DNA of 64,000 bases from Octopus sinensis (lineage: Eukaryota), in contig NC_043012.1 of the NCBI RefSeq assembly GCF_006345805.1, forward strand, positions 9,176,001 to 9,240,000. Direction: 5' to 3'. Made by a program: the position numbers and the translations under genes. Below, in pieces: positions 2,640-62,480 of this stretch; the first letter of the stretch is position 1; every line of letters begins with the position of its first letter. A model generated the notes under the pieces. The model had not been told where the DNA came from, searched no databases, and saw only the letters and a program-made list of their open reading frames with translations.

Positions 2640-3237
2640 CTTTTACTAGATTTAGCCATTGGACTGTAGCCATATTGAAGCAGTGCCTTAAGGATTTAGC
2701 TAAACAGATCAACCTCTGTTCTTATTTTATGTGTTTCTTTTTGCCGGGGGTGTAGCCCTGTAACCAAATAGCAGTCGTCATGCGTTGGTGGAAAGGCAAA
2801 CACAAAGGTGTGCACATACATATATACATGTATATAAAGCGGTGAGCTGGCAGATACGTTAGCACGCCGGGCTAGCGGTATTTCGTCTGCCGCTACGTTC
2901 TGAGTTCAAATTCCGCCGAGGTCGACTTTGCCTTTCATCCATTCGGGGTCGATTAAATAAATGCCAGTTACGCACTGGGGTCGATGTAATCGACTTAATC
3001 CATTTGTCTGTCCTTGTTTGTCCCGTCTATGTTTAGCTTATTGTGGGAAATAAAGAATTATATATACATGTATATTCCATGGGCTTCGACACGTTTCCAC
3101 TCTACTAAATTCACTCAGAAGATACTAATCGGTTCGGGATTATAGTAGAATACACACAAAACACAACGTAGTGGGATTGAACAGCGAAGTACGAGGTTAC
3201 GAGGTGAAGTTCTTAGTCTTACAGTTATACCCGCGTC
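2640..3237 (-). mobile_element. Old diverged SINE family A copy interrupted by a family C SINE
   Basis: Diverged family A tail (2640-2820) and head (3080-3237) flank the family C insertion. Confidence 0.6.
2837..3060 (+). mobile_element. SINE family C (tRNA-like head, Meta/MESC-like central domain), monomer
   Basis: GAGTTCAAATTCC B box then GTCGACTTTGCCTTTCATCC..GGGGTCGAT; TSD TATATACATGTATAT at 2821-2835 and 3061-3075. Domain name from recall, not searched. Confidence 0.85.
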
Positions 3238-19375: not shown

Positions 19376-20037
19376 CGGTATAAAATAAGGATGAATAAGA
19401 AAAAAGGCGATGGTGGATCGGAGTGGAAGTTATGCTTCAATGTTTCTTAGATTTTTGTTGGTGGGCGGTATGAGAGGAGAGTCTTGGCAGAGAAAATAGT
19501 AACAGGTTTTTGTATCAAAAATCCACACGAAACTGGAAGCTTGCATTTTTATTCGGTACAGAAACAATCAATATTGCCACTAATCTAATATATAATACTC
19601 ACCGAAATTAAAGAACCGCAATATACGTACTTAGTGCCTCACTAATATCACAAACGCAGCAAAACAGCTGTTAGGTATATTAAATTCATGATAGCAACAG
19701 CAGAGCCATATTAAATTAGACCAAAATGTCTTTATTGAGTTGTCGCAAACTGCTTAAATCTTCACGTATCTTCCTCTCCCTCTCTCTCTCTCTATCTCTC
19801 TCTCTCTCTACACACATACACCTGCACCACACACATACATACACGAACACACTCATATGTAGGTATATACAAACATATATACAGCAGCACTCTTAGTTTT
19901 ACCCTGTTTTACATTCTTATTTTCCTCACTCCGCGGTTTATATACACACAAAGAATGTAAATATATCTTTAAATAGAAACATACCCACACCACACATAGA
20001 CGCAAACGTAGATACATGCATATATATCTATACATAA

Positions 20038-20140
20038 ATAAGTACCAGTTTCGCACTGGGGTCGGTGTAATCGACTTAATCCCTTTGTCTGTCCTTGTTT
20101 GTCCCCTCTATGCTTAGCCCCTTATAGGAAATAAAGAAAT
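20038..20140 (+). mobile_element. SINE family C, 3' fragment
   Basis: aagtaccagtttcgcactggggtc...ttagccccttataggaaataaagaaat. Confidence 0.8.
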
Positions 20141-28225: not shown

Positions 28226-28342
28226 TGGGTGCCGCAGTTTCACACCACTAGCTGATCCTTGGGTGCCGCAGTTTCACACCACTAGCTGATCCTTGGGTGC
28301 CGCAGTTTCACACCACTAGCTGATCCTTGGGTGCCGCAGTTT
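28226..28342. repeat. 34-bp minisatellite, about 3.5 near-perfect copies; degenerate units continue to ~28565
   Basis: Unit tgggtgccgcagtttcacaccactagctgatcct. Confidence 0.9.
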
Positions 28343-29484
28343 AACCCCTTCACCTAGTCCATGGGTGGTCACGGTTTGGCTCATCCTGATTATGTTTGAT
28401 TGTCATGGTTTGATACTTGTACCTAATCTATTGAAGCTGCAGTTTAACTGTGATCTGGTCCTTGGGGGTCATGGTATAACACCTCTGCTTGGTTCTTTGA
28501 TACCGCAATTTAGCTCCCCCACCTGTTTTGGGGGTACCGTGGTTTAACACTCTACTTGATCTTTGGTTGCACTCAGTGACTGAATCATTTCTATTCTAAA
28601 TATTTCTCTGGTATGTAAATAGCTTCCTTCTTTCGACCAACTAGTCTTAAAAATTCTGAAAAGAACCTTGGCATTTACCGTTTCCTCTTAACCTAGCATC
28701 AACAATTTCTAAGCAACGGGAAAAAACAACAAGAACAATAAAAAAACTGTCTACTACATGATTGTACTATTTTTCGATTTTTGTTGTGAATGTATAGAAC
28801 TCTAACAGTTTTAGCAATATTTTTGCCTTTTTCCGTTTTTTCCTTTTCTCAAGACATTTCTTATTATGAAGGATTATTCCTTTATTTAAATGTGATCTGA
28901 AACAAAGATCTGTACCCACAGTTGTCAAAGTTCTGAATCCGAGCAATTTGGTGCATTTAATGTTAACATTTTCAATCCCCACATTTTGGATATCTATATT
29001 TCCAGATGTTAATGTTTTAATAAAATACTTCCATTTTTCTGTGGAAGACAGCGCGATGCTTTCTTTTTCTTTACCTATAACCATTTTACCTACATATGTC
29101 CTTTAACCATGCTCACTTTACCAGCATCACTAAGGCAGTAAGCTAACAACCACCAGCATATATTTCATACTTTTCCCATGATATTTGTAGTTTCATTTTC
29201 AATTAAGTTTCCAGATTTGAGTTTTTTGCTATTTTTATTTATTAATTTTCCATTATTAGAAGGTAAGCTTTTGGCTTTTAATATTTTCTCTTAATTAGAT
29301 TTTTCATTATTACTGTTTTTTTACCAACTTAGCTATTTTATAACATTCCTTCTCCCCTTCCTCCCCTTCGTCCTCCTGTCTTCCGTCTTCTCCCCTTCCT
29401 CCTCCTCCCCATCCTCCCCATCCTCCTTCTCCTCTTTCTCTTCTTTTCCCCTTCCTCCTTCTACTTCCCCCCTTCCCAATCCCC

Positions 29485-32974: not shown

Positions 32975-33810
32975 GTTCGCACACCGGACAAAATAGTTTG
33001 CGGCAGTTCGGCCTTCTACCGTCTGAGTTCAAATTCCACCGAGGTCGATTTTGCCTTTCATCCTTTCGGGGTCAATAAAATAAGTTCCAGTCAAGTACTG
33101 GGGTCGATGTAATCGACTCACCTTCTCCCAACAAAATGTCAAGCCTTGTATAGTAGATAGAATTATTAGCACAGGGGGCTAGTAGAATCCTTAGTGTATC
33201 GGAAGAAATGTTTCGCAGCATTTCTTTCGGTTCTTTACATTCTAGGTTCAAATTTCGCCGAGATCAACTTTACTCATCATCCCTCCGGGGTCAATAGTTT
33301 GCGGCAGTTCGGCCTTCTACTAGCCAAGTACTGGGGTCGATGGAATCGGGTAATACCCTACTCCAAAACTGCTGTCCTTGTGTTTAGAATAGAAGTAAAT
33401 ATTTAGGCGTTGAGCTTGCAGACTCGTTGGAGCATCGAAAAAATTGCTTTGTGAAATTTGTTCCGGTTCCTGGTATTCTGAGTACAAAATCCCGCCGGAG
33501 TAGACTTTGCAGTTTATTCTCCCAGTGCCAATGAAATAAAGTACCAGTCAAGTACTGGGATCATTGGTACTGCCTGATACCCCCTCCCCTCAAAACTGCT
33601 GGTCTTGTAATTTATTCAGCAACCATTATTATTTTCTTTATTGAAACGGGTGTGGATAGGCAGATTTCGTCGGATGTTAGATTAGCAGGTCGTGTGGTAT
33701 TTCATTACTTTTGGTATTTTTCCGAGTTCAAACCCGTGGATCGCCGTTCATCCATCGGGGGTCAATGAAATAATTGACGATCAAAAACTGAGTTTTATCA
33801 TTGATCCCCA
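32975..33810 (+). mobile_element. Chain of about 4 older family C-related SINE copies
   Basis: Recurrent gagttcaaat...ttcatcc...ggggtcaat...ccagtcaagtactgggg. Confidence 0.7.
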
Positions 33811-37799: not shown

Positions 37800-39780
37800 T
37801 TGTCCACTTCAGGATTCTAGCGGCTTACCCAGTTACTGCGACTGCGCGCGAGTTTATTGTCGAAATTATGTTTCTGGCATACAGTTTTGAAGCCAGTATT
37901 CTTCTCGCTCGCCACAGGTACTCTCTTTTTGTCTTTTCCTTCATGTTGTAGTGTTTGAGTCCATCTGCCTCAAGTACTCCTGGGTATTTATAGCTGGATT
38001 GAGGTTGAATCGCCTTCATCGTTTCACAACTTGACAATCATATGTCTTCTGTCCTGACAGGCTTTCCTCGTCTCATCACCATCGTAGCACATTTTGAGGC
38101 TCTAACCTCCATCATAATACCATTAGAGAAAATCCGCACAGAATGGACCAGGTTGTCTAGTTCTGCCTCATTTTTCGTGAATAGTATCAGCTCATCCATG
38201 AATAACAAGTGGATAGTTTTCCCTTACCGTTTCCCAGGTCATACACCAACTTTGTTTTCTGTAGTATTTCACTCAAGGCGATCATTCCCAGCACGAAGAT
38301 CAGTGGGGACACACTGTTCCTTGGAAGATTCATGTCTTGATTTTCACATCTACTAGATTCCCGGCTGTCAATTCCGTTCTTCAGCACTTCATGCTATTCC
38401 CTATAAGGCTTCTCATATTTACTGTTACTCCGTACATCTCGATTCTTCTTATTATTCAGGAATGTGATATCATATCGTATACTTTACGATAGTCAACCCA
38501 TACCGTGCCATGCCACGTTTGTGTCTTCACCTGCAGTGTCCTGATAATTAGATTATCAATTAACACCTGATCCTTCGTTCCCCAGCTCCTCTTTCGGAAT
38601 CCTTTCTGTTCAGCAGGTAGCAGCCTACATTTTTCCAAGTATCTATACAGTTTACCGGCCAAAGCACCTGACATTAGCTTCCACATCAACGGAAGGCACG
38701 CTATTGATCTAAAGTTGGGTTCAACATTTCACTTTTCAGGATCCTTGGCACTTAACAACGTCTATCCTTTTGTCATCCAGCTGTTTATTGAACCTTCCTG
38801 GAAATACTCATCTAGGTATTGCACTATCCTTTCACAGAGTCCTCTCAGCTTCCTCATCCAATAACCATGGACCCCATCCGATCCTATGCTCTTTCAGTTT
38901 GAGAATTTTCTTAAACGCTTTTTTTTTTATTCTGTTGTTATCTTTATGCCTTCTTGGACTTCTGTATTTCTTAACCTATCTTGGATTTCATACTGTTACT
39001 CCGCTTCATCATTATGCTCTACAGGTTGGTCTCAGATCCCTCTCCAGAATGCCCTGCGTTCTTCTGCATCTGGTATCATTGTTAAGTGTAATTGCCCATC
39101 TAGTTCCTGAAACAGTTTCTTCTCATTTGCGTCAACAATCTGTTTAGCCTAATTGTTTTGTTTTATTGTCATATCCTCCCAGTTTTGCTTTGATTGCTTC
39201 TACTCTTTGTTTCAGTTCTAATATCTCATCATACCATTTATCTCTTATTCTATATTTTCCTTCCAGCATTATTCTTATGTTTTCGTTCTGCAATTCTCAT
39301 CCGCTAAATCTATAAACTTGTCCTAAATGTCTTATCAACTTTGTTTCTCACAAATTCGTCGACGCCAGTTTGTTCTCTTCTTTCGTATCCAACTCTATCT
39401 GCAGCAACCATAGTTGCAGACCAAATAATCTTGTTAGCTTCAGTTATATTTCTCGTCTGGAATAGCCCAAGGACCGAAAATATCTTTTCGGTTTATTCTT
39501 TGAGCTTGCATCAATCAATGTACCTCAGATTGATGGGTGCTTGATCCTGGTCTTCTCTAATATATCGGCACAGCATCTTCGCTATGTCTTGTTGGTCATC
39601 ATCGTATTCTTGTGATAGCTCTTCCCATTACTTCTGCTAGCATTTACATTTACACTTTGCTCTTCGTCTTCACTGCCGCCATATATTCCTCTGTTCTCTC
39701 TGGGTACATTATCTGTTGGTGAAGTGTTATTTCTATTTTCTACTTATGTCTTCAATTTCCATGCGTATTAGCTACGCTTT
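37800..39780 (-). mobile_element. Degenerate R4/Dong-clade LINE (RT domain)
   Basis: MWKLMSG...LLPAEQKGFRKRSWGTKDQVLID...WVDYRKVYDMISHS; SYKYPGVLE...SKLYARNIISTINSRAV; abuts (AAT)n/(GAT)n. Confidence 0.85.
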
Positions 39781-39822
39781 TGCTCTTATAATAATAATAA
39801 TGACGACGACGACGACGACGAC

Positions 39823-39925: not shown

Positions 39926-40730
39926 AAGGTGGCAAGCTGGCAGAATCGCTAGCATGCCGGGCGAAATGCTTAGCGGTATTTCGTCTGCCGTTACGTTCTG
40001 AGTTCAAATACCGCCAAGGTTGACTTTGCCTTTCATCCTTTCGGGGTCGATAAATTAAGTACCAGTTACGCACTAGGGTCGATATAATCGATTTAATCCG
40101 TTTGTCTGTCCTTGTTTGTCCTCTCTATGTTTAGCCCCTTGTGGGTAGTAAAGAAATCGGTATTTCGTCTGCCGTTACGTTCTGAGTTCAAATTCCGTCG
40201 AGGTCGACTTTGCCTTTCATCCTTTCGGGGTCGATAAATTAAGTACCAGTTACGCACTGGGGTCGATATAATCGACTTAATCCGTTTGTCTGTCCTTGTT
40301 TGTGATCTCTGTGTTTAGCCCCTTGTGGGTAGTAAAGAAATAGGTATTTCGTCTGTCTTTACGTTCTGAGTTCAAATGTCACCGATGTCGACTTTGCCTT
40401 TCATCCTTTCGGGGTCGATAAATTAACTACCAGTCAAGTGCTGGGGTCGATGTAATCGACTCATCCCAACCCCCCACAAAATTTCAGGTATTGTGCCTAT
40501 AGTAGAAAGGATTATTATTATCAGGCTGACGGACAGTAGAATTGTGAGAGCGCCGGACAAAATTCTTTGCGACGTTTGTGCAGGTATTTTATGTTCTGAG
40601 TTCAAATCCTGCTGAAGGCAATTTTGCTTTATATCCTTACACAGTCGCCATAAATAAAATACCAGGACTATGGTCAATGCTATCGGTTAACTCCTTCACT
40701 CAAAATTGCAGGCCTTGCAAATAAATTTGA
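39926..40730 (+). mobile_element. Family C SINE tandem array (184-bp period) plus older copies
   Basis: GGTATTTCGTC restarts at 39975, 40159 and 40343. Confidence 0.9.
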
Positions 40731-40866
40731 AGCTACTACTACTACTCTACTACTACTACTACTACTACTACTCCAACACTACTACTGCTGCAACAACAAC
40801 AACTAGTATTACTACCCCTGCTGCTACTGCTGTTACTGCTGCTGCTCCTACTACCACTTGTACTAC

Positions 40867-40900
<34 letters not shown>

Positions 40901-40917
40901 ACTGCTGTTACTGCTGT

Positions 40918-40950
<33 letters not shown>

Positions 40951-40990
40951 TACTAGTGCTCTGCTGCGGATACTGCTGTTACTGCTGCTG

Positions 40991-41029
<39 letters not shown>

Positions 41030-41944
41030 ATTCTATTTTGGAGCTAGGCAATGTTGCCATGAAATACGATGTATGTAGAATTGAGCTGGATTAGGAATCC
41101 TTCTGGCTGACTGGGTACTTTATGATACACGACAAATACAATGTTTTTGTTACAGTCAATGCTTTAGAGGGAATTTTTGTGGTAGAGAAGATATTGTTTC
41201 TGGAGCAATCATCGTAAAACATACATGTTTACCAATTTCTTTGTTTATCCTCCATGTCATCTGAACTATCATGACTCTGAAGTACCAATTAGTTTCCCCT
41301 GTTTACTTAACCAGTCGGTATCGAACCGAGTTTGGGATCGATAATTGATTTAAGTGCTGCAGAATGAACGGTTACCATTTTAATATCGGTTAAATAAATT
41401 TGATTAATATTTCCAGAATTAATTGACAGAACGAAACCATCTGCTCATAGCATATTGGAAGGAATCACATAAAAATATTGATAACAACAACAACAACAAC
41501 AGCTACAAAACCAACAATAATAATTATTATTATTGGAACGAAATTCTTCGCCGAGAGTCTAGATTTGGAAACTCTTCAAATTGAGATTTAATTTAGAAGC
41601 GAGAAAGAAAAGATCCCTTTCGGTTCATTACTAATGCATTTTAAAGTATTATCCAACAGCAACAGCTAACTTTTAAATACGCTTTTAAGCTCCTTTAACA
41701 TGGTTTTTATAGCTTTTAAAGACGGAGCGTTGCGCTTAAATATTTTAACGACATATTTATTTGCTTAGAAGTATAGAAAAAGGAGTAAAAATAACATTAT
41801 AAAATCATTATAATTAAATGACGGAAACGAGTTTGTGTCCTCACTGCATGTAGTCAAAAGCAAGCGAGTAAGGTTTAGTCGAATAAAGCCATCTTAAGTC
41901 ATCTAAACCCGAAGATCTGGGTTCATTTTAGGTTGAAGCTAACT

Positions 41945-41984
<40 letters not shown>

Positions 41985-42130
41985 AATATCTATATGCATA
42001 TATTTTATTTATATTTTATTTATTACACTATTGTATGACTGAGTGCCCTCGCGTCGATTCGATTCGATTCGTTGAGTTTCGTTTCGTTTCTTCTTCTTCT
42101 CTAAGCTGGTTTATATATATATATATATAC

Positions 42131-42546
42131 ATTTCTTTACTACCCACAAGGGGCTAAACACAGAGGGGACAAACAAGGACAGACAAAAGGATTAAGTCGG
42201 TTACATCGACCCCAGTGCGTAATTGGTACTTAATTTATCGACCCCGAAAGGTTGAAAGGCACAGTCGACCTCGGCGGAATTTGAACTCAGAACGTAGCGG
42301 CAGACGGAATACCTATTTCTTTACTACCCACAAGGGGCTAAACACAGAGAGGACAAACAAAGACAGACAAACGGATTAAGTCGATTATATCGACCCCAGT
42401 GCGTAACTGGTACTTATTTAATCGACCCCGAAAGTATGAAAGGCAAATTCGACCTCGGCGGAATTTGAACTCGGAACGTAACGGCAGACGAAATACCGCT
42501 AAGCATCTCGCCCGGCGCGCTAAAGTTTCTGCCAGCTCGCCGCCTT
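42131..42546 (-). mobile_element. Family C SINE dimer
   Basis: Head plus two bodies; junction AAGAAATA|GGTATT at about 42312. Confidence 0.9.
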
Positions 42547-43489
42547 TCATGAAAATATATATTTAAGGTAATTAAAGGCACGGTTAATAACAAGTTGTTA
42601 AAGAAGATATTATTAAATTGCAGTAAATCCAGGTGAAAACAGCTTGCATGTAAATACATAATCGGTTGAAATGATCTTTTTGAGGAAAATATTGATCATA
42701 TTAAAATAAGAAAATATGAAATTCACATCGAGTTCATAATTAAATTTGATTAAATTATGAACTAAAATGTGAAATTTCTGTTTTTTGCTTTTAATTCTAA
42801 AACTACACATACACACACATACACAAGCGCGTATACACAAACACACAGTCACTCATGCGCATATGCATATGCATATACTTATATAAGACAAAATGTGATA
42901 AACTCAAGCTTATATCATTTGGGAATGTAATGCAAGAAAGTGTTCCCCTGATAATCCGTTGTGGTTAAGCATCCAATTGCATTCGGAACATCCAGTGTAG
43001 AGGTTGGAGCAACTATAACGGCGAAACGGACGTAAGGAACTAATATTGATAAACATGTGTTTATCATAATTTCTCATACATTTTCTGTGTATATCATAAC
43101 TAGTAGTACATTAAGGTAGTAACGAAACCACTATACTAGAAGTAGAGTATCTGATGATAATTTACGTGGAGTTCTAATCGAATAGTACAGCATTATATAT
43201 CCATTACTGCCGATCTTACCAATCTGTTTTGCACTAGTGATTCAAAAGATGTTAGGTAACAGTCCGATTATGTAACACTGCGCTCTGCAGAGTTGGTAGT
43301 TATGGAAGAAAATATGGTGACTGCTCTCTATTGTTGGAGCTGAAAAGACACATACCATTTTTCCTTCGGAAGCAAACAGCCTCTGTGGTGTTGTAAGCCT
43401 AAAAAAGTTTTCTGAAAACATGTGTGTGGTGTAGGGGTTGGAGCGTTTTAGGGATGGAATGTGTACACACACACACACATATGCATATT

Positions 43490-43520
<31 letters not shown>

Positions 43521-43527
43521 AATATAT

Positions 43528-43559
<32 letters not shown>

Positions 43560-44359
43560 CAATATGTTACATTACTCGGTAGTCAAGATATATATATATA
43601 TATATATCTATACAATATGTTACATTACTCGGTAGTCAAGATATATATATATATATATATATTAATAAATAAAACATATGCATATATATATAAACATATA
43701 TGTACGTACCTACCTCTACATGTACATATACACGCATATATGAGTACAGGACACCAAAAAGTCGTCGAACACAATGAGAAACGAAAACATAGACACAAAC
43801 CCAAGGAACTGGACATTTTTTAAAAACAACAAAAAATAGAGTACAGGACAATTAACACAAAGAAAAAACCCTTCTTCAGTCGCTATGGTTTCATCTACTC
43901 TACGTTTCGAAGGTATATGCAGAGAGAGAAAGAAAGAGGGGCGGGAGAGGGGAGAGAGAAGGTGTAGACATATATAACAAATACATAATAGCGTACATAC
44001 TTTATTTTAAAAAATCGTGAATGAGAAAATGAAATGACACGTGTTAATCATGGCTGGAAGTGTAGGCATAAAACTCTGCTAAGTCGGAACAATGCTGTTC
44101 TTGGATTGGTTATTTATTCAATTATCTATATTCTTTGATTCCTCTATTCCTCATTTCTGTAATATATATTTATAATCTCGAGGTAAGTAATTGGGAATTG
44201 TATGACTTTTTAATATATCCGTTATTTTTATATTTTCGAAGAAAAAAAGATTGTTTAGGGTTAGTTGTGTCATACGTAGTTCTGGGAGATCTATTCTCCC
44301 TTTTTCTCCTTCTCTCTATGAGCTGTGGGGAGGGGTGGAATACATTGTATTCTTCGACT

Positions 44360-44832
44360 TGAGTGGTAAGGAGAGTAAAAAGAACTGCTCTCTCAAGAAC
44401 GGGTGGTGAAGAGGGTGGAACTGTTGTATGAAGATAGTGTGAATAAAGGATGGTGCGATGGATAGAAAAAAATGTTCTTCGAGGATATTGTGTATAATGG
44501 GTATTGGAGAATGGAAGTGTTCTTTGGGGTTGTATGAATAGTGAACAATGGGTGGGGGTGGATAGAAGGAAATGTTCTTTTGGGATAATATAAATAACGG
44601 GTAGAGGGGTAGGTAGAAAGAGCTGTTCTCTCAGGACAGTAAAAATACGGGTGGTAGGATGAGTAGAGTAATGTTTTTTAGTGGTAATAGAGAGTATAAC
44701 AGGTATTAGGGGAGGGTAGTTATTCTATAGGGATGGTGTGAATAACGGGTATTAGGGAGGGGCAACTGTTGTATGGGGAGGCTGTGAGTAACGGGTAGTA
44801 GGGAAAAGTGACTGTTGTATAGGGATGATGTA
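44360..44832. repeat. Degenerate ~42-bp purine-rich minisatellite
   Basis: Recurrent aataacgggta...ctgttgtat.ggga units. Confidence 0.6.
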
Positions 44833-45022
44833 ACTATCGTGTGGTGGTGAGGGTTGTTACTAAACTCAATGATATTTCTCGCGAAGATTATTGAAAAAGA
44901 TAAAAAATAGTAGAATTTTGCAATTTTAGGGAAACAAAGAAAAGGGATCCTTGAAATATGAAATAACAAATATACGTTTTTGCATACATATTGTCATACA
45001 TGTAAAGAAATACGTATATGCA

Positions 45023-45076
<54 letters not shown>

Positions 45077-45396
45077 CGTACACCCTTGCACAAACTAATA
45101 CATACACACAAAGAAACAGACAAATATAGATATTCAGAGAGACACATACCCGAACACAAAAACAAAAACAAGCACACACATATATAGATACTAATTAAAT
45201 TCACATAAACAGAATAAAACACAGGTACACACATGGAGAGAGTAACAATAGATGTGCAAATGAATATGCATGTATACAATCATACATAAACTCGTATGCA
45301 CGCAAATATTTATACAAAAAAGTATAAACGTAAACAAACTCGCACTCATATATTTATATTTATATATATACACACCTCTCTCTCTCTCTCTCTATA

Positions 45397-45447
<51 letters not shown>

Positions 45448-45635
45448 AATTAGTAAATAAATGGCACAACAAAGTACCGATATTTACTGGAAATAGCGAA
45501 CGTAAAATTACGACGCTAATGTGTAGCTTCACCGCGTATGTATTAGTAAAAATGCGTGTGTGCAACAAAATAGAGAAAAAAAACCGTCTTACCTCCAGGG
45601 AGAACATCTGAAAGATGAAACACCGGAAAATGGAT

Positions 45636-45713
45636 AATGTGGTACCTGCAGGTTTCAGGTTTTGCAAGATATGTCTCTCACCATATTTGCTTTACCTTCT
45701 TCAGCCAAACATA
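45636..45713 (-). ncRNA. Type I hammerhead ribozyme, fully paired
   Basis: ATGTTTGG-CTGAAGA-AGGT AAA GCAA ATATG(GTGAGAGA)CATAT C TTGC AAA ACCT-GAAA-CCTGCAGG-TA-CCACAT. Confidence 0.85.
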
Positions 45714-45760
45714 TACCAAGACGAAACTACGATGTTACCACATAAATACTAACATACGGC

Positions 45761-45849
<89 letters not shown>

Positions 45850-45850
45850 T

Positions 45851-46189
45851 GTGTGAAGGCGCACGGCTCAGTGGTTAGAGCGTCGAGCTTGCGACCGTGA
45901 GGTTGTGAGTTCGATTCCCGGACCGGGCTGCGTGTTGTGATCTTGAGCAAGACACTTTATTTCACGTTGCTCCAGTTCACTCAGCTGTAGGAATGAGTTG
46001 CAATGTGACTGGTGCAGAGCTGTATCGGCCCCTTTGCCTTTCCCTTGGATAACATCGGGTATGGACAGGAGGGGCTGGTATGCATGGGTGACTGCTGGCC
46101 TTCTATAAACAACCTTGCTCGACTTGTACGTCGGAGGGTAACTTTCTAGGTACAATCCCATGGTCATTTATGACCGAAGTGGTCGCCCC
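45851..46189 (+). mobile_element. tRNA-derived CORE-type SINE (family D)
   Basis: A box CGGCTCAGTGG, B box GAGTTCGATTCC, then CORE-like GTGATCTTGAGCAAGACACTTTA...CACTCAGCTGTAGGAATG. Confidence 0.8.
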
Positions 46190-46237
46190 ATATATAGAAG
46201 TATATACATATAAATACATATATATGAATCTCTCTCT

Positions 46238-46325
<88 letters not shown>

Positions 46326-46533
46326 TATATATATATATATATATAATTGACATAGGATACAATTTTTTTCGGGAAAAAATTTTTATCAATGGCCAGCATA
46401 TCAAAAAATGCCTTTAAAGGTAAAATTTATACATAAGTTACAAGATAAGGGCAGAAGAAAAATTCTAATGCCAGATACGCCGAAACAAAAAAATTGTCGA
46501 TAACCATTAAATTTAAACTTATGTATATATATT

Positions 46534-46602
<69 letters not shown>

Positions 46603-47463
46603 TATACAGACACTTACACATACATAAATTGAAGAACTTTAGAATGCATAAAGAGAGAGTTAAGCATATTTTATCTTTAATAAAATGTAATGACGACGAG
46701 GAAGAAATGAATAAAAAAATATATAAATAGATAAACAACGAAAGAAAAAAAATCTCATCAGAATAATAGATATTTAAATAATGGATTTGGAAGAAAGTTT
46801 TATGTGTAATTTATCCAATAAACAACGCTGACAATGGTGGTTCTACCGTGTAGAAGAAGGAGAAGCAGTGACATTAAATTTATGATTATGAACATCTATC
46901 ATCTTATTTATGCATGGACTAATTCGATTTCTGTGAACATTTAATTTACTTTCGATTGTCGGCTGGGTTACAAGAGAAGGAAATTATTGCAATGATAAGT
47001 GAGTAAATATTGATTGCTTATACTAGCAGCGCTAGAAAATGGGAGGAAAGGGATTGCAGTATTTCTTTACCAATTCCTAATTAAAATGTTCTGGTGTCAC
47101 ATCCAGACGCTATCGATTTTGCTTTTCATCTTTAGAATATTCTTGAAATATACGGCATTAATCGGTAAAATTTTTTTTCCATTGCAAAGCTATGCCAAAT
47201 ATCCACTTAAATCTTATTATGAGGTGGAATTGTGAAATGGCGAAATAGTGGAATTGTTTGCGCGTTGGGAGAAAAATGCTTAGCAGTATTTCATATAGTC
47301 TTACATTCTACGTTCAAATAGCGCTGAGGGCAGCTTTTCCTTTCATTCTTTTCGGGGTCGATAAAAGCAGTACTGGGCTCCATGTAATTGACTAGTTCCA
47401 ACCTACCCCACCCGATTCTAAGTCTTATGCTAATAGTAGGAGTGGCTGTGTGGCAAGTAGCAA

Positions 47464-47857
47464 GGCGCAGGAGTGGCTGTGTGATAAGTAGCTTGCTTAC
47501 CAACCAAATGGTTCTGGGTTCAGTCCCACTGCGTGGCACCTTCGACAAGTGTCTTCTACTATAGCCTCGGGCCGACCAAAGCCTTGTGCGTAGATTTGGT
47601 AGACGGAAACTGAAAGAGGCCCGTCGTATATATGTATGTGTGTGTATATGTTTGTGTGTCTGCATTTGTCCCCCAAACATCGCTTGACAACCGATGGTAG
47701 TGTGTTCACACTCCCGTAACCTAACGGTTCGACAAAAGAGACCGATAGGATAAGTAATAGGCTTCCAAAGAATAAGTCCTGGGTCAATTTTCTCGACTAA
47801 AGGCGGTGCTCCAGCATGGTCGCAGTCAAATGACTGAAACAAGTAAAAGAGAAATAA
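47464..47857 (+). mobile_element. SINE family A, full length, with a short head duplication at 47438-47460, between old family C copies
   Basis: Sequence match; aggagtggctgtgtg is repeated. Confidence 0.9.
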
Positions 47858-48522
47858 AAGCGTAGAAAGTATTATTTATTAGAGTCGCAAACGGTGGCAA
47901 GATGGCGAAATCATTGGGGAGTTGGAATACAAATTCTTTTGTGGTATTTGTTCAAACTCCGGATACTCTAAGTTCAAATCCTGCGGAGGTCGATTTTTTC
48001 CGATACCCCTCATCTCTCTAGAGTTGATAAAATAAGGTTGTAATCAATCAAGTAGCGGGGTCGAAACAAACGGCTAAACTGTGTCCCCTCAAAATTGCTG
48101 GCGTTCTACCAAACTTAGAAACAGTCATTTGAAGTTGTAGAAACAGCGAAGTATTGAGTAACGCGAACCCTTTCTTCGTCATCCCATTCATCTAAGGATG
48201 AAATAAAAGAAGCTAAGTTATCGACTGTTATCATTGTTTACTCCAGGTCAGCCACGATAAAGCTTGTGACCGTTCTGTATTTCATTCCGGAGATGTATCC
48301 AAACTACGTTATTTAACGTTGCATTTTAAAGATTAATTCGGCTCATTTTGCTCAGTAAAGCAAGCACGCATATCGAGAATGCAATTTGTTAAACGAAAAT
48401 ATATTCGCCATGCTGGACCACTGAAATCTACAAATCTTTTTCATCCTCTCTCTTATTCCTTTCTGTTGTTCACACACCTGTTTTCGTCTTATGTTTTCTA
48501 TAAATTTCAAATATATATATAT

Positions 48523-48920
48523 AGGCGCAGGAGTGGCTGTGTGGTAAGTAGCTTGCTTACCAACCACATGGTTCCGGGTTCAGTCCCACTGTGTGGCACC
48601 TTGGGCAAGTGTCTTCTACTGTAGCCTCAGGCTGACCAAAGCCTTGTGATTGGATTTGGTAGACGGAAACTGAAAGAAGCTCGTCGTATATATGTATATA
48701 TATGTGTGTTTGTGTGTCTGTGCCTGTCCCCTGAGCATTGCTTGACAACCGATGCTGGTGTGTTTATGTCCCCGTTACTTAGCGGTTCGGCAAAAAGAGA
48801 CCGATAGAATAAGTACTGGGCTTACAAAGAATAAGTCCCGGGGTCGAGTTGCTCGATTAAAGGCGGTGCTCCAGCATGGCCGTAGTCAAATGACTGAAAC
48901 AAGTAAAAGAGTAAAAGAGT
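48523..48920 (+). mobile_element. SINE family A, full length
   Basis: Sequence match. Confidence 0.92.
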
Positions 48921-49528
48921 ATATACACATACACGAATGAGTGGACAAACAAAAGAAAAGGGCTCTCAGCACATTTATTAGGCGTTACAAGTATTATTCG
49001 AAACAGTTTGATTCCGTGCTATTTAAAGTTTCACTGGCCCCTAACGGAACCTGTCTCCTCATGCTGGTGGAATAGACGAATGAATGAAGAGGCCCAGGAA
49101 GTCCAAGGCAACTGAACAAACGAAAGAAAAATACTAATGGCAAGTAGACATCCTAAGAGGTGCACATAGAAAAAAATGTGGGTGGGGCACACTTTAAAGA
49201 CATGTTAAAGTAATTTCTCTATTTTTGGAGAGATATTTCATACTGATATAAGACACCTTGTCTCCTGGTAAATCTTGATAAAAAAATATACGGTTGGTGA
49301 TCACCTTGAATTCTATGTCTATGTGGAGTGGCATATCTCAGAATAACATCACTTCACTATACTTTGAGATCTATTGTGGTGTATTTATGGCACATATTTT
49401 CTGCTGGTCATACCTGTGCTTGTATAGATTCTTGGTGAAAAACGTGCAGCGAAGACATTATTAATTATTTCTTCGTAATATTTTCTTCTCCTTTCACTTC
49501 TTCATCGTCGCCATCGTTGACCTTCTCC

Positions 49529-49600
<72 letters not shown>

Positions 49601-49628
49601 TATAATAATAATAGTAATGATAATAATA

Positions 49629-49706
<78 letters not shown>

Positions 49707-49738
49707 TAATAATAATAATAATAATAATAATGATAATA

Positions 49739-49774
<36 letters not shown>

Positions 49775-49782
49775 GTAATGAT

Positions 49783-49831
<49 letters not shown>

Positions 49832-49866
49832 GTAATGATTATAATAATAATAATAATGGTAATGAT

Positions 49867-49898
<32 letters not shown>

Positions 49899-49950
49899 GA
49901 AGAAGAATGATAATAATAATATTTATGATTATAGTAATTATTATTACTAT
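49529..49950. repeat. Long (AAT)n microsatellite
   Basis: Direct reading. Confidence 0.95.
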
Positions 49951-50385
49951 CATTTCGTTTGTACAAGGTTTCTTGGTAATGTTTTTTCTTGTTATCAATC
50001 AGTAAAGTTTTGAGATATTTATGTCCGATTCCCTTTCTCCATACCTGGCAATTTGGGATATAATTGAAATAGGGATTCCTTATCTTTGACATGAATTATT
50101 TCCAATAAAGCAATAATTTCCATCCTTCTTTTCTTTTTTATTTACTTCAAAACCATTTGTCCTACACATTTAGCATATTTATTAATTCATTGATAAGAAT
50201 TTGTCATTTATATCATTCAGATATTTTCTACGACAAAGTTCTCTTAAGCCACGACGCTTTTTTACGTTGCTTTAATTCCAAATTTATATGCATCAATGGA
50301 AGGCAACATCGATATATTGCAGTTTTGTTTAATACAGAAATAATTGGATTGGGCTTCGCTCCTGTGATCTAAAAGGATTATCCTC

Positions 50386-50965
50386 GCTATCAGTTAAAAG
50401 TGGGAAGCAAACTATCAGTTAAAACTATAATCTACACTACTAGTTAAAAGTATAACCACACTATTATACAATAAATGTATGGTCCACACTATCAGTTAAA
50501 ATCATAATCCACACCATCAGTTAAAAATATAACACACATTATCAGTTGAACGCTTAGTCAGCATTATCAGTTGAAAGTATAACCCACACTATCATTTAAA
50601 ACTATAATCAACAGTATTAGTTAAAAGTATAAACCACACTAAAGTTAAAAGTATAATTCACACTATCAACTTACTCTATAATCTACCCTATCAGTTAAAA
50701 CTATAATCCACTCTATCTGTTGAAACTATGACCCACACTATCATTTAAATGCATAGTATACACTATCAGTTAAATGTATAATATACACTACCAGTTAAAA
50801 GTATACCCAAAATATTAATTAAAATTATAATCAACACTATCAGTTAGCTGTATAATCCACACTATTAGTTTATAAATCCACACTATCGATTAAAAGTATA
50901 AATCCACACTATCAGCTAACAGTATAATCTCTATCAGTCATAACTCTAACTTGCACTGTTAGTCA
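50386..50965. repeat. Diverged ~25-bp tandem minisatellite (over 20 units)
   Basis: Consensus about ATCAGTTAAAAGTATAATCCACACT. Confidence 0.9.
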
Positions 50966-52759
50966 AAACAACATTATTACTTAAGACAGTTGAACCTTGT
51001 TGATAGCCATATGTTATTGTCAGAGCGAATAGTAAATAGGTTGGACGTGGATTTAGATTTTTTTAAGCCAAAGAAAATTTACATAAGGTCGTATTGCTAT
51101 GTGTATGTATTTATGGTGTGGTTAGTTGCAGTGAGAGGACTAGATAAAGGCACAGAAGCTGGCGGGATTTCTTCAATTCAATGGATATTTGACGTAGATG
51201 CATCTCTTGTCGTAAGATTCCTTCCAGATTTTGTTTGAAATGAAATATCACTGCACTATTTTGACGCAAGAGTTTGACTAAAATGTTTTTAAGGAGCATC
51301 CATCCCCATACGGCAGTACTCATTTATCACTGTTCTTAGATCTACTTTAAGAATTATATTAAGCGTTTTGTATCAATGCATATTAATTCTTGTTTATTCT
51401 AAGATTTTATTAATATAGATCCCGATCAGTTTCCTCAAACTCCAGGTCTTGCCGTATTTGGGCTCTGTCTCCTAAAGTTCATTTGAGATACGTTATTTTA
51501 GCTTCCGAGTTCAGTCCCCATCGGGACACCATAAACTGCCTCTAATGCCTCCATTCAGTGAATGAAACGATTCAACAAAATAATCCAAGCGCTCAGAAAT
51601 ATTTTACAGAATATTCGTTATATTTGGTAACAGCAATATAAGTTCAGGAATTCAGGTTACAGCTGAAGAAACTTTCTGACATTATATAAGTTAAATAATC
51701 GAGTAGAGATTATTTTTGGCTTAAAAAAATCTCGTCGATTTTGTGTTGAAATCCTATGTAAGACATCTGTTGTCAATAGCAAATGGCAAACCATCTGGGA
51801 ATGTTTAATGTGATTAAAAAAACATTTACTGTGGCAGATATATTTGTTTACTTGTCTCTTTAAGCGTTGCTTCTTATACCATCACCTTCTCGTCTGTCCA
51901 TTTATTTACATAACATTCAATGTTAGTATTATAACGGGATCTAAGTTGACAACTGAAATAAGTTATAACTAATCACATATTTTACACACAAACTACAACA
52001 CGAATATTCTAATTCTTAGATGTCTTGCAAACAACTTGCACATGCAAGTGCTACCAGTTAAAAGCTCCGTATATCGGAAGCTAGCAAGTGTATGGGGTCA
52101 TCAGGAGAGAATGCGCGCCGTTTCGGGGCCTACCTCTCGACGGCATCAATGCGCACCGGCCCCCCTCACTGATATGAGGCCTCGCTTGCTAGATCAGCTG
52201 GTTATGAAGATCTCAATATACTTCTAGCCATCGCTCATCGTCTCTTTTTAACCAAATCCAGTGGCTAGCCTTCTCCACTGTATATTGGATATCAGTCATG
52301 GTGGTATTGACTTTACGATGAGTTAGGCCTAGCGATAACAACTTCGTAATTAATTTATCAAAAGTGTGTAAATATAGGTGGGCGTTAGTTGTACATCATA
52401 ATAGACTACACATATAAATCAGTTTAATTGACCAACTAAATTTTCTTCAGTCACCCAACGCCAATTGTTATTGAATTTATAACTGTAACGGAGAAGCATT
52501 TCTGAAAGTAGCGTGGGAGGAATTCCAACCACGTTTTGTGGTTCTCTGCCTCAAAAGCTCATTTATTGTTTTAATATTATCATGTATCATTCTAGCAAAT
52601 TTATTAGGCTATTCAGTCATTGTACTTCTGCTTGTTAACTTCGTAATCAAACCCTCTTTCGAAAAAATCTTGGAGGCATTACCAGCAACAAGGAATGCAT
52701 GGGTGTATATCTTGTAAGCCAGAGGGCAACAACAGCATTGACAGAGAGAGTAGCCTGTC

Positions 52760-53430
52760 TAGCCTAGAAGGATATGCATTCGCTATCCAGGAATAGGAGA
52801 GAGTTATTAAATGCCTGGTAAACAAACGAGACAAAGATAGCACTAACCTTCCACGTTGTGGTAGAAAATTCGGCTATGCTATACAAGTGTGGAAGATATC
52901 ACTCACATCATCAGCAACTGCCCCAAAATGTCTACGAGATACTACCTGCCTCTAAGGCATGATATAGTTGCAAAGACTATTTACAATGCAGGAAGGACTG
53001 CTCTGATGTCCTTGCAGGTGGACTATTTCTATAAAAACAGCAATTCGGTGCAAACGTTAACAGATCTGATACCGTTTTGTACAAGAGTCATGCACTGTAG
53101 GAACATGTGTCATGCACTGTAGGAACATGAATCAGGCACCGTTGTACATGCCAGCTGGCCAGCGGTTGAAAATTTGGAAAAGAGAACATTTATGGTGAAT
53201 TAATGCGGAACTTACAGCTGTTGTACGTAACTACAGATTTTCATTTATGTCTATCATCATAGCCACATTAGGCTATTTACCTACAGATTTACAAACAAAA
53301 TTTAGAAGTACTGGGTTTTTCGAAGAAAGAGCAAGAGAAATTGAGGCGCATTTTCCAAATCCAGTATATTAGCGTTACAGTGAATGTTCGCGAGACATTC
53401 CAAAGATTCTTCATCTGGGATTCTGTAAAT
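52760..53430 (+). mobile_element. R4/Dong-like C-terminal zinc-knuckle/REL endonuclease relic
   Basis: LEGYAFAIQE...EDITHIISNCPKMSTRYYLPLRHDIVAK...YGELMRNLQLLY. Confidence 0.75.
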
Positions 53431-53601
53431 GAATAGCTACATATACTTGGCCGCATGAATCGACAGTTCAACCTACACACCTAGTCAACCGTATATTTAC
53501 AAACATCAAGAGTTCTCTTGACTTAAACAATTTTGTTGCTTTGTAAGCGCTCGGCTCAAGCTCTTAGAAAGAACTTAGAATAAACTCAAAGAAAACACAC
53601 A

Positions 53602-53637
<36 letters not shown>

Positions 53638-53727
53638 CACGCATAGATATACACGCACAGACACACATACACTCACGCACGCACACACACAAACACACAC
53701 ATGGAGTGAATGGTAATTTACATGAAC

Positions 53728-54177
53728 AGAAGGCAGCGAGCTGGCAGCAACGTTAGCACACCGGGTGAAATGCTTTGTGGTATTTCGTCCGCTGCTGCGT
53801 TCTGAGTTCAAATTCCGCCGAGGTCGACTTTGCCTTTCATCCTTTCGGTGTCGATTAAATAACTACCAGTTACGCACTGGGGTCGATATAATCGACTTAG
53901 TCCGTTTGTTTGTCCTTGTTTGTACCTTCTATGTTTAGCCCCTTGTGGGCAGTAAAGAAATAGGTATTTCGTCTGTGGGTCAGTAAAGAAATAGGTATTT
54001 CGTTTGCCGCTACGTTCTGAGTTCAAATTCCGCCGAGGTCGACTTTGCCTTCCATCCTTTCGAGGACGATTAAATAAGTACCAGTTACGCACTGTGGTTG
54101 ATATAATCGACTTAATCCGTTTGTCTGTCCTTGTTTGTCCTCTCTGTGTTTAGCTCTTTGTGGGTAGCAAAGAAATA
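53728..54177 (+). mobile_element. Family C SINE dimer bounded by one 16-bp TSD
   Basis: GGTAATTTACATGAAC at 53712-53727 and 54178-54193. Confidence 0.92.
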
Positions 54178-54486
54178 GGTAATTTACATGAACCGTAGTG
54201 AAGTCAGCATAGTAATCTCAACTCTGCAATATAGATTTATATTCTTTAGTCTTGAATACTTTCCCTCCTATTTGTATACTCAGTGACACCCCCTCCCGTA
54301 TCTATATGTATTAGTGTGTGCCTATGTGTAATTAATTGTGTGTAGTATGTGGTATTAGATCAAAAGTAACACAAAATTGTAAATGATTGAGTAGTCACTA
54401 AACATTATTTAATAAGTTATCTCTTTCTCTCTATCTGCCCACCTACCGATCTATCTATATATATATATATATATATATATATCTTC

Positions 54487-58579: not shown

Positions 58580-59200
58580 AATTTTCAAAATCTTTTATTT
58601 AATACGCAAAGTGAAGAATTGAAATGTAATCGATAGGTAGGTCTACATACTTTAGTGTTTAGTTGACTTTCCCTTTTGCAGTTTTTAATTCAGAAACTCT
58701 TTTTGGCATTGAACTGATGAGCTTTGTGATGTCTCTTGTGGAATTTCTGCTCACTTTTCATGCAACAATCGAAACAATTCATCTTTAGATTTAGGTTTCT
58801 GTCGAGTTTTTCCTTTAGCTCTATCTAGTATGCTCCAAAGATCTTCAGTTGGGTTCATGTCAGGAAATTGGTTCGGCCAAGGAAGCTTTTTGATCCCATT
58901 TTCAGTCAGCAATTGTTGATTCCTTTTCGCTGTGTGGCATGGAGCCCCATCTTCCATGAATAAAAACTCATTTTTCGTTATGTTATCGTGTGAATACATT
59001 GGAAGTAGTCTTTGATTAAGTATTTCGATGTATGTTTCAGAGTTTATGGTTCCAACACATTCGATCAGCTCAGAACGACCATTGCTGGGGACAGCTCCCC
59101 ATACCATTACAGAGATACCGTCATGTTTCACAGTTGGTTGGAGGCGAGAATTCAGATGTAGGATTTCTGTGTTTGCACATGCGTATGACGTCCCCATAAT
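58580..59200 (-). mobile_element. Tc1 (DD34E) transposase C-terminal fragment
   Basis: VKHDGISVMVWG...FMEDGAPCHTAK...WPNQFPDMNPTEDLW; D-x34-E counted. Confidence 0.9.
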
Positions 59201-59886
59201 AACGTCGAACACCAGATAAATCGAAGTGATAGGTAGTACTATGATGAAATACGAGGCGGTAGATGGAGTAAAAATTAACTAGAAGAATTAACAGGGAGAA
59301 GTGGATTTGCAGCTAGACACCTTGAGTGGCAACACCATACCGTCCAATAGCGACGTTGGATGCTGGACAGTATGAGTGGATTAAATTGTTCGGGATTCGG
59401 TCCAAACCTCCAGGTGTACAAGAACTGGAGAAAACAGGGTGACTAGTTTTATCTAGTAACGAAATGAGACGAAACTGTCCCTGAAGGTTCGAGCGAGGGA
59501 GACGAATGCGAACATCACATCCGTCATCTACTATCAGCGCCTGACAGTCGTATCTCGTCCCGCCTATGTCGTTTTACGTTCTGTGTTCAAATCTTACGCG
59601 CATGAAAGTTGCCTTTTACCTTCCGAGAGTTGATAAAAATAAAATATCAGTTTAATAATGGGATAAATGGAATCGAATAGCTCCCTTAGCTCAAAATTGC
59701 TAACATTGTGTCTAAATTTAAAAAAAATATTATGGATTTAGCTGATGAGTAACTGAACTGGTATAATGGTAAAACGACAGAGAAAATTGAGGTAACCGTT
59801 TGACATTGTAGAGGTACATATAAAATGGCGAGAAGTAGCTGGTAACACACACACACACACACACACAACACACACACACACACACA

Positions 59887-61471: not shown

Positions 61472-62025
61472 GCCCTGATGCAGTACCAGGCAGTGGCTCT
61501 CATGGCTTTTGATCTTAACTGATTGGAAGTGTTATCATGTACATTGTTTTGTCTTGGTATAAAAGACGGGCTACAGCAAATATTCTGCTCAATACCACAG
61601 ATTTGCTTGTCAGTTGTTTGACATTAACCAGTTGAGCATGTCCCTTAGTGGCTGACGATATGTGCATCTCTGATCACGAGCAGAAGTAGTGGGGGAGCAT
61701 CATAGCTATGTGTTGAGAGGGATTCTTTGGGGTTTGAATAATTCACCTCTGGAAACATGGGTGGTTCTTTCAACATCCTTAAACAATCCTTATTCAGGGA
61801 CCTTTTGAGCGGGATGGGTTACTCGACCTGAAGAAAATTCTAACTGGGCCCTACCTGCAAGGTCATGTGCTGTTTATCTTGATATGAAATCACCATGTCG
61901 CGCACATATGGTTGTGATGCATGTGCCTGGTGTACCCTTATCAGACGGGTAGTCATGATGGGTATATTGGGCTTCGTATATTTTACCCCAGTGTCACTTT
62001 GATGGCATGAACTGCTCTCTCACTC
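61472..62025. mobile_element. ~555-bp non-coding insertion within (AAT)n
   Basis: Sharp (AAT)n boundaries on both sides, higher GC than the flanks, no ORF. Confidence 0.55.
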
Positions 62026-62084
62026 AATAATAATAATAATTATAATAGTAATAATAATGATATTGATAGAATGTAAAACAAAAA

Positions 62085-62480
62085 CAAAAACAGGAAAACT
62101 TGAAGGTGATATCGAGACTGGCAAGAAAAGCCACTGCACGGGGCCATACTCCAAACGTGCTGGGGAAGCTGATGTAGATAGTAGAACTCCTCAGAGGCTG
62201 GAGAGTGCTGGCTTGAAAGCCGAAACTGAAGGATTTATCCCAGCAGCACAAGATCAGAGCCTTCTCACACAGAACTGTCAGCTAACGACAAACTTTCACT
62301 CTGCAATGACAGCAGAACTGTTACAAAAGGTTTTCCTCCTTGGCACGGCCAGAATAATCAGGAAAATATAAGTCGAAAAGAACAGGTAGCATGGTACTGT
62401 AGGCTGCAAGCAGCAAGCCCGCTACGCATGTAAAACTCCAAGAGTTCCAACAAAATCTGAGAAAAGAGAAAAATAATAAT
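62085..62480 (+). mobile_element. Internally deleted R4/Dong 3' end
   Basis: AGLKAETEGFIPAAQDQSL...LQKVFLLGTARIIRK, then UTR and aataataat. Confidence 0.8.

What the first reader, a model, noticed from the sequence alone, without database searches (positions are those of the whole stretch)
39926..54193. Family C SINE forms head+(body)n arrays with a nucleotide-precise junction
Seen: three separate loci (39.9, 42.1 and 53.7 kb) restart at the same site, AAAGAAAT(A/C)|GGTATT(T/C)CG; the period is 184 bp at 39.9 kb. The 3' end GAAATA is complementary to TATTTC at the restart. At 53.7 kb one 16-bp TSD encloses the whole dimer and begins with GGTA, the start of a next unit. At 40.3 kb the last body has an older tail. 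Inference: rolling-circle or template-jump reverse transcription of a circularised SINE RNA, or self-targeted insertion.
Basis: partly seen in the sequence, partly recalled or inferred. Interest (0 to 1): 0.7.

Follow-up and report, generated by a model that had tools for sequence, protein, structure and literature searches.

The report
Octopus SINE growing in-register tandem arrays
A short jumping-gene family, most likely from an octopus, often occurs as one promoter head followed by two or three bodies joined at exactly the same base, probably because the join is inherited through RNA and new bodies are added in register by base pairing, not because the RNA is a circle.

Summary
Observation real, with corrections. 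A monomer and a 5'-truncated copy with 15-16-bp TSDs end at that same 3' base, so only the restart needs explaining. Named protein hits are Octopus bimaculoides. Rolling circle from one RNA is disfavoured: the two units at 42.1 kb differ at 5 family-polymorphic sites (p<1e-4), the last unit at 40.3 kb is another subfamily, and the 3'-end/restart pairing has predicted probability about 0. No position-specific mutations indicate a single dimeric master (5 units). The restart is the first base after the loop of a 13-bp head hairpin, and both datable switches fall inside that 13-nt arm. Best reading: an inherited junction; array transcripts read into the next unit, prime TPRT with that sequence (TSD starting GGTAATTT) and add bodies in register by self-insertion or template switching. 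Similar SINE arrays are published for squamates and a clam; the mechanism rests on three loci. New variant of a known kind.

The parts
39926..39974 (+). Locus A head (49 nt) with A-box-like motif at head position 13 and 5' arm of the head hairpin; T at head position 21 as in 4 of 4 old copies aligned, A in 3 of 3 other young heads
   Evidence: A/B-box consensus recalled
39975..40158 (+). Unit A1, young body (B-box, central domain, 65-nt young tail)
40159..40342 (+). Unit A2, young body
40343..40521 (+). Unit A3, body of the other (old-tail) subfamily from unit position 14 on, ending in ATT repeats
   Evidence: same translated signature in named O. bimaculoides proteins P0002, P0003, P0013
42498..42546 (-). 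Locus B head
42485..42514 (-). 13-bp head hairpin with TAGC loop; its 3' arm is unit positions 1-13, so the restart is the first base after the loop
42314..42497 (-). Unit B1
42131..42313 (-). Unit B2, ends in a TA run, no TSD found
53712..53727 (+). 5' TSD of locus C (16 bp, begins GGTAATTT)
53730..53778 (+). Locus C head
53779..53962 (+). Unit C1
53963..53993 (+). 31-bp mini-unit: unit positions 1-11/13 joined over a TG microhomology to the last 18-20 nt of the tail
53994..54177 (+). Unit C2
54178..54193 (+). 3' TSD of locus C
2836..3059 (+). Monomeric young copy with 16-bp TSD beginning ATATAT (2820-2835, 3060-3075) and an 8-nt deletion in the 5' arm of the head hairpin
20035..20140 (+). 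5'-truncated young copy with 15-bp TSD beginning ATATAT (20020-20034, 20141-20155)

Best explanation
This is a tRNA-type SINE mobilised by target-primed reverse transcription (shown by TSDs and 5' truncation). The tail-to-position-50 junction arose once or a few times and is now inherited, because arrays are transcribed from the single head and retrotransposed as multimers (inferred). RNA from an array reads past a tail into GGUAUUU, a leaky Pol III terminator-like signal that monomers lack next to their tail; this extension pairs with the nicked target and sets where reverse transcription starts (inferred from the locus C TSD). The best partners for that extension are the family's own restart sites, so new bodies are added in register inside existing copies: either the cDNA is primed in a genomic copy and its 5' end anneals to the homologous host sequence (self-insertion, about 0.55 of this reading), or the reverse transcriptase stalls at the head hairpin and switches by homology to an internal unit of another array RNA (about 0.45). 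Either way the junction is regenerated exactly, the head is not duplicated, and neighbouring units can come from different subfamilies.
For: Same 3' end in monomer, truncated copy and arrays, with 16, 15 and 16-bp TSDs; background for abutting 15-nt repeats 82 of 20000. TSD start follows what lies downstream of the tail: ATATAT in 2 of 2 non-array copies, GGTAATTT in the 1 array with a TSD; GGTA has frequency 0.0028 and GGTA(A)TTT 0.0002 per site in the window. B1 and B2 differ at 5 of 16 sites where both alleles are each carried by at least 2 other copies, p 4e-6 to 6e-5 against independent decay of one template. In locus A the switch from young to old subfamily lies within unit positions 1-13 of 119 homologous; the mini-unit breakpoint is also at 11-13; positions 1-13 are exactly the hairpin arm. 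A's head groups with old copies at position 21. No T4 run in A or C and only one, late, in B, so Pol III can read through arrays. Precedent: read-through target sequence fixes the RT start of R2Ol (PMC6795142, passages); upstream homology gives precise 5' junctions in R1/R2 (PMC2718515, passages); TATTT terminates 42% of B2 transcripts in transfected cells (PMC8466645, passages).
Against: Three loci and one informative TSD. A1/A2 and C1/C2 do not reject a single template (p 0.10-0.21 and 0.04-0.09). Polymorphic sites were defined on the same 8 copies, A1 and A2 are not independent, and gene conversion could give the same mosaic. Self-insertion with a 15-16-bp stagger would leave old-type bases at A1 positions 14-16; they are young-type, so trimming must be assumed. 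The position-21 marker is one base and is not clean outside the window: P0003 (old tail) translates as the A form and P0001 (young tail, unnamed record) as the T form. The mini-unit is equally a 30-31-bp slippage duplication and shares a C with C1. The same TATTT lies in the first unit and would cut output. Loci A and B have no TSD. No partner LINE with either tail was found in the window.
Confidence: 0.5

Rival explanations
1. Ordinary route: one founding internal duplication in a master copy, retrotransposition of multimers, then DNA-level unequal crossing-over, slippage and gene conversion that change unit number and mix alleles. No preference for self-insertion or hairpin-driven switching.
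For: Explains identical junctions, the enclosing TSD and its GGTA start by inheritance alone; the mini-unit looks like slippage; A1/A2 are among the closest pairs (10 of 184); unequal recombination is the published explanation for squamate and clam SINE arrays (PMC10702118, PMC11481361).
Against: C1/C2 differ at 21 of 184 and B1/B2 at 16, as much as between loci (9-22), so they are not recent local duplications; B1/B2 carry different lineage alleles; the locus A crossover falls in the first 13 of 119 nt (about 0.11 if uniform).
Confidence: 0.27
2. RNA-level joining: the head is cut in its apical loop, giving a 5'-OH fragment that starts at G50, which is joined to the 3' end of another SINE RNA by ligation or by end-to-end template jumping of the reverse transcriptase; the chimaera is then inserted.
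For: Restart is exactly the first base after a 4-nt loop in a hairpin also predicted in old copies; gives mosaic units, a switch exactly at the junction and one enclosing TSD. RtcB ligation before retrotransposition is shown for U6/L1 (PMC6789731, abstract); R2 template jumping is described in PMC2718515 (passages).
Against: Needs RNA ending precisely at GAAAUA, whereas no terminator lies there (first T4 at +202 for the monomer); does not predict the GGTA-starting TSD; diverged relatives seem to restart elsewhere in the head, about positions 18-26 (inferred from translations of 3 unnamed records).
Confidence: 0.13
3. One reading: a 184-nt circular RNA closed by GAAAUA/UAUUUC pairing is copied by rolling-circle reverse transcription.
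For: Exact period; A1/A2 are compatible with one template; a circle would present GGUA after the tail, fitting the locus C TSD.
Against: B1/B2 and A2/A3 come from different lineages; the closing pair is not predicted in linear or circular folds; GAAAT also occurs in the 5' arm of the head hairpin, which accounts for the complementarity; no Rfam match at gathering score in the window and no hammerhead core motif in the unit (motif recalled); a circle has no head, yet all 3 arrays start with one.
Confidence: 0.06
4. All arrays descend from one fixed dimeric or trimeric master, as Alu does.
For: 3 of 4 near-full-length young copies in the window are arrays; one TSD encloses locus C.
Against: 0 columns separate first from terminal units; unit number and last unit differ among loci; monomer and truncated copies exist; tree of 7 units has no supported branch.
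Confidence: 0.04

Closest known systems
SINE-derived satellites (sSat) of squamates, e.g. sSat3Gja1 and sSat3Ati2 (PMC10702118, parts 1-4 of 5 read)
   Same: Tandem unit shorter than the SINE with fixed ends across loci; leading unit extends to the SINE 5' end; some units cover end of head, body and LINE-derived region (130-215 nt).
   Different: sSats were scored from 4 or more middle units, reach hundreds, homogenise and tend to be subtelomeric; here arrays have 2-3 units, are dispersed (3 in 14 kb), mix lineages and one has a TSD, pointing to retrotransposition rather than satellite growth.
TSD-(SINE)n-TSD arrays of the clam Scapharca/Anadara 'S. broughtonii' (PMC11481361, section 15 and passages read; genus expansion recalled)
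   Same: Mollusc tRNA SINE; one TSD pair around the array; only the first unit has a full head, later units share one head truncation.
   Different: There internal units are also 3'-truncated and only the last has a full tail; here every young unit has a full, retrotransposition-competent tail. No self-priming signature was described in the passages read.
Head-to-tail SINE multimers: Dip, B2, Ves (PMC8466645, passages)
   Same: A large share of copies in multimers; origin by insertion into another copy or by multimer retrotransposition left open by the authors.
   Different: Described as full SINE units joined tail to head; here later units lack the first 49 nt and the join is internal.
R1/R2 rDNA-specific LINEs (PMC6795142, PMC2718515, passages)
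   Same: Works-like model: read-through target sequence anneals to the primer; upstream homology gives exact 5' junctions.
   Different: Autonomous, with a site-specific endonuclease and a host-gene target; here a non-autonomous element whose proposed target is itself, with no enzyme identified.
Octopus tRNA-derived SINEs OK, OR1, OR2 (Ohshima and Okada 1994; seen only as citations; the name OK is recalled)
   Same: Same genus-level host and element class.
   Different: Sequences could not be read, so identity with any of them is untested.

Membership tests
tRNA-derived SINE (SINEBase definition, PMC3531059 passages) | Short (<1 kb), non-coding, interspersed | tested here: met
   233-nt monomer; copies at 7 regions of the window; frames broken by stops
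tRNA-derived SINE (SINEBase definition) | Pol III A and B boxes in a 5' head | tested here: met
   A-box-like at head position 13, B-box-like at 77 in 3 heads and 69 in the monomer; consensus recalled; spacing unusually long
tRNA-derived SINE (SINEBase definition) | At least 60% identity to a tRNA species | tested here: inconclusive
   ARAGORN 0 genes; Rfam no tRNA hit up to E 10 over locus B; resemblance to tRNA-Gln is recalled only
tRNA-derived SINE (SINEBase definition) | [quoted passage not shown] | not testable with these tools
   No animal genome collection; high density in the window and exonised copies in 4 named O. bimaculoides proteins suggest it
TPRT-mobilised retroposon | Variable TSDs, fixed 3' end, 5' truncation | tested here: met
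   3 of 5 young-family loci have 15-16-bp TSDs; one is 5'-truncated
TPRT-mobilised retroposon | Partner LINE sharing the 3' tail | tested here: inconclusive
   No LINE with either tail in the window; genome not searchable
SINE-derived satellite (sSat) | Tandem unit is a fixed part of a SINE, with one extended terminal unit | tested here: met
SINE-derived satellite (sSat) | At least four middle monomers, within-array homogenisation | tested here: not met
   2-3 units; within-array mismatches 10, 16, 21 of 184 versus 9-22 overall
Fixed dimeric SINE (Alu-like) | Constant unit number with position-specific diagnostic mutations | tested here: not met
   0 diagnostic columns; unit number varies; small sample
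Ribozyme-bearing circular-RNA retroposon (retrozyme; recalled) | Self-cleaving ribozyme in each unit | tested here: not met
   No Rfam hit; no hammerhead core motif on either strand; unknown ribozyme classes not excluded
Ribozyme-bearing circular-RNA retroposon (retrozyme; recalled) | Monomer-length circular RNA in vivo | not testable with these tools
   Needs RNA experiments
Meta, CORE, V or Ceph central-domain superfamilies | Shared conserved central domain | tested here: inconclusive
   No exact 9-11-nt body motif in supplements of PMC5804259, PMC5786205, PMC11481361; no likeness by eye to bivalve Meta/V/CORE rows in 3 of 4 parts of the PMC4824008 supplement; no alignment test run

The most novel reading that the evidence does not exclude
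The tRNA-like head of this SINE is cut at the apex of its extended anticodon-like hairpin, and the freed body is ligated or template-jumped onto SINE 3' ends (sometimes its own, making circles); the resulting junction then supplies a terminator and a primer-binding sequence that steer further insertions into the family's own copies. The 184-nt body would be a headless parasite that spreads by capturing the promoters of resident SINEs, including those of an older subfamily.
Probability: 0.13. Interest if true: 0.8.

Novelty: new variant of a known kind. Interest (0 to 1): 0.48.

Why it matters
SINEs make up about 11.6% of the O. vulgaris genome (PMC13282606). If a leading family grows by adding bodies inside its own copies, copy counts and age landscapes built on monomer consensus sequences are biased, and the family is a natural, high-copy test of how far RNA-DNA pairing, rather than the endonuclease, chooses SINE insertion sites. 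It would also offer a retrotransposition route from dispersed SINEs to satellite seeds, a step that the squamate and clam papers attribute to unequal recombination. All of this can be tested on public assemblies.

Tried and rejected
Rfam: nothing at gathering score in 64 kb; one chance hit at E 0.36 over locus B. ARAGORN: 0. Folding z-scores of monomer and dimer are unremarkable (-1.31, 0.15). GTDB genome-contig scans for the junction and for a body motif: 0 and 0. Protein searches with junction-spanning translations: 1 hit, 12 hits, 4 of 24 candidates, 0 of 13; none carries the exact position-50 junction, so genome-wide frequency is unmeasured. Source look-up for 10 of these proteins could not be made. 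LTR/TRIM-like tandem rejected: ends differ and TSDs are 15-16 bp with 5' truncation. Tree of 7 units unresolved. Partner LINE search in the window negative. A paper search on an 11-nt motif returned only unrelated primer matches. Viral and metagenome contig collections stayed unchecked; phage, plasmid and E. coli collections were not searched because the element is animal. Not-in-print claim rests on searches (listings) and the papers read; Repbase, Dfam, the 1994 octopus paper, SINEBase supplements and bioRxiv supplements were not seen and may already hold this family as a multimer.
Full report
Context. The window is AT-rich animal DNA full of microsatellites. Translations of the element hit four named proteins, all Octopus bimaculoides, that contain exonised copies, so the host is most likely an octopus; the species was not determined. 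The family occurs at 7 regions of the window, with more diverged relatives at 33.0-33.6, 40.5, 47.2 and 59.6 kb.

Observation. The junction motif occurs 5 times, all exact, against 0.01 expected. Locus A (39926-40521) is head + two young 184-bp bodies + one body with another tail. Locus B (42131-42546, minus strand) is head + two bodies. Locus C (53730-54177) is head + body + 31-bp mini-unit + body inside a 16-bp TSD at 53712-53727 and 54178-54193. Both end at the same base as array units. The left side of the junction is therefore just the normal retrotransposition end; only the restart at position 50 needs explaining. Loci A and B have no TSD.

Structure at the restart. Position 50 is the first base after a 4-nt loop of a 13-bp hairpin (-16 kcal/mol as RNA); unit positions 1-13 pair with the head at probability 0.8-1.0 in B and C and 0.3-0.7 in A, and the hairpin is lost in the monomer, which has an 8-nt deletion there. 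A consensus fold of 7 heads, 4 of them old, keeps it, with few double-sided changes (3 of 24 pairs), so conservation is suggestive only. The tail end and the 5' arm of the hairpin share GAAAT, which accounts for the complementarity. No ribozyme was found.

Relationships among units. Within-array mismatches are 10, 16 and 21 of 184; all pairs span 9-22. No column separates 3 first units from 2 terminal young units, and the tree has no supported branch. B1 and B2 differ at 16 sites, 5 of them sites where each allele is carried by at least two other copies (p 4e-6 to 6e-5 under one template decaying independently); the same test is not significant for A1/A2 (0.10-0.21) and borderline for C1/C2 (0.04-0.09). 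Caveats: sites were defined on these 8 copies, A1 and A2 are not independent, and gene conversion mimics the signal. The last unit of A differs from all young units from position 14 on and shares several of these bases and its tail type with the old copy at 33 kb; its translated signature recurs in named O. bimaculoides proteins P0002, P0003 and P0013, so it represents a real subfamily. The young-to-old switch lies in positions 1-13 of 119. A's head has T at position 21 like 4 of 4 old copies and unlike 3 of 3 other young heads, but P0003 and P0001 show that this marker is not clean. That this subfamily is older is inferred from the higher divergence of its relatives.

Priming signature. The two non-array TSDs start ATATAT; the array TSD starts GGTAATTT, a one-base-bulge match to the next unit's start (site frequency 0.0002, GGTA alone 0.0028). 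The simplest reading is that the template RNA ran into a further unit and paired with the primer. 3'-end/TSD correlation is documented for RTE-type SINEs (PMC6007223, passages) and read-through pairing for R2Ol (PMC6795142, passages). Arrays contain almost no T4 run, while the restart carries TATTT, a 42-50% terminator in mammalian tests (PMC8466645, passages); its action in octopus is inference. An endonuclease preference could also explain this one TSD.

Mechanism. Shown: TPRT mobility, identical junctions, mosaic units in B, subfamily switch in A, hairpin position. Inferred: array transcripts are the source of the junction; their GGUAUUU extension favours priming at the family's own restart sites; the 5' side is closed by homology (as for R1/R2 with upstream target sequence, PMC2718515, passages), or the enzyme stalls at the hairpin and switches to an internal unit of another RNA. 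The mini-unit has exactly the form of a 5'-truncated self-insertion with an 11-13-bp TSD, but is formally identical to a slippage duplication and shares a base with C1, so it does not decide. I give this family of explanations 0.5, plain inheritance plus DNA recombination 0.27, loop cleavage with ligation or end-to-end jumping 0.13 (analogy: RtcB and U6/L1, PMC6789731, abstract only), rolling circle 0.06, one fixed master 0.04.

Outside evidence. No animal genome could be searched. None of 14 protein hits carries the exact junction. Three unnamed, diverged records (P0006, P0010, P0012) translate as a young-like tail joined to a partly truncated head at about positions 18-26 (my reading, uncertain by several bases, organism unknown). 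This suggests that such joins arose more than once and that position 50 is not the only restart among relatives, which cuts against a unique cleavage site. GTDB scans were empty.

Comparison and novelty. Arrays of a fixed SINE fragment with one complete end are published for squamates (PMC10702118, parts 1-4 of 5) and, with one enclosing TSD and a shared head truncation, for a clam (PMC11481361, section 15); full-length multimers are common for Dip and B2. The architecture is therefore a known kind. I found no description of it in octopus, nor of a self-priming junction, in searches, in part 1 of 3 and the supplement search of the O. vulgaris repeat paper, or in passages of PMC4824008, PMC5804259, PMC4758252, PMC5786205 and PMC3531059; Repbase, Dfam and the 1994 octopus SINE paper were not seen. 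Verdict: real feature, new variant of a known kind, interest 0.48.

Noticed in passing
window 32984-33610: Three to four old-tail relatives of the SINE in direct tandem with near-complete heads and ATT-type spacers; another follows locus A directly at 40520-40720. The old subfamily seems to insert into ATT tails, unlike the TA-targeting young one.
   Followed up: partly
window 32995-33018 and 33296-33319: A 24-bp exact copy of the head/body boundary of the first old element sits inside the body of the second, 301 bp downstream; looks like a templated insertion or local conversion near the same hairpin region.
   Followed up: no
window 2862-2875: The only monomeric young copy has lost 8 nt of the 5' arm of the head hairpin, while all three copies with an intact hairpin are arrays. 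One case only, but it fits a role for the hairpin.
   Followed up: partly
window 38000-39800 (-) and 62003-62480 (+): Degraded LINE-like coding fragments; the first lies just upstream of locus A. Resemblance to R4/Dong elements is recalled; Pfam gave no hit for the pieces tested.
   Followed up: partly
window 5099-5590 (+): Reverse transcriptase fragment, Pfam RVT_1 E 4.8e-11; RTE-like by recall.
   Followed up: partly
window 58751-59278 (-): DDE_3 transposase fragment, E 1.7e-10, Tc1/mariner-like.
   Followed up: partly
window, 23 regions between 1911 and 63644: A second, more abundant repeat family (cluster inflated by microsatellites); at 47439-47500 its head is partly duplicated.
   Followed up: no
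window 28202-28367, 44696-44825, 50370-50929: Minisatellites of period 34 (3.4 copies, 100% match), 46 and 25 (22.5 copies).
   Followed up: no
proteins P0002, P0013, P0014: Antisense copies of this SINE are annotated as coding exons in O. bimaculoides models of an aminopeptidase-like, a kelch-like and a PLAT-domain protein; exonisation or gene-model artefact.
   Followed up: no
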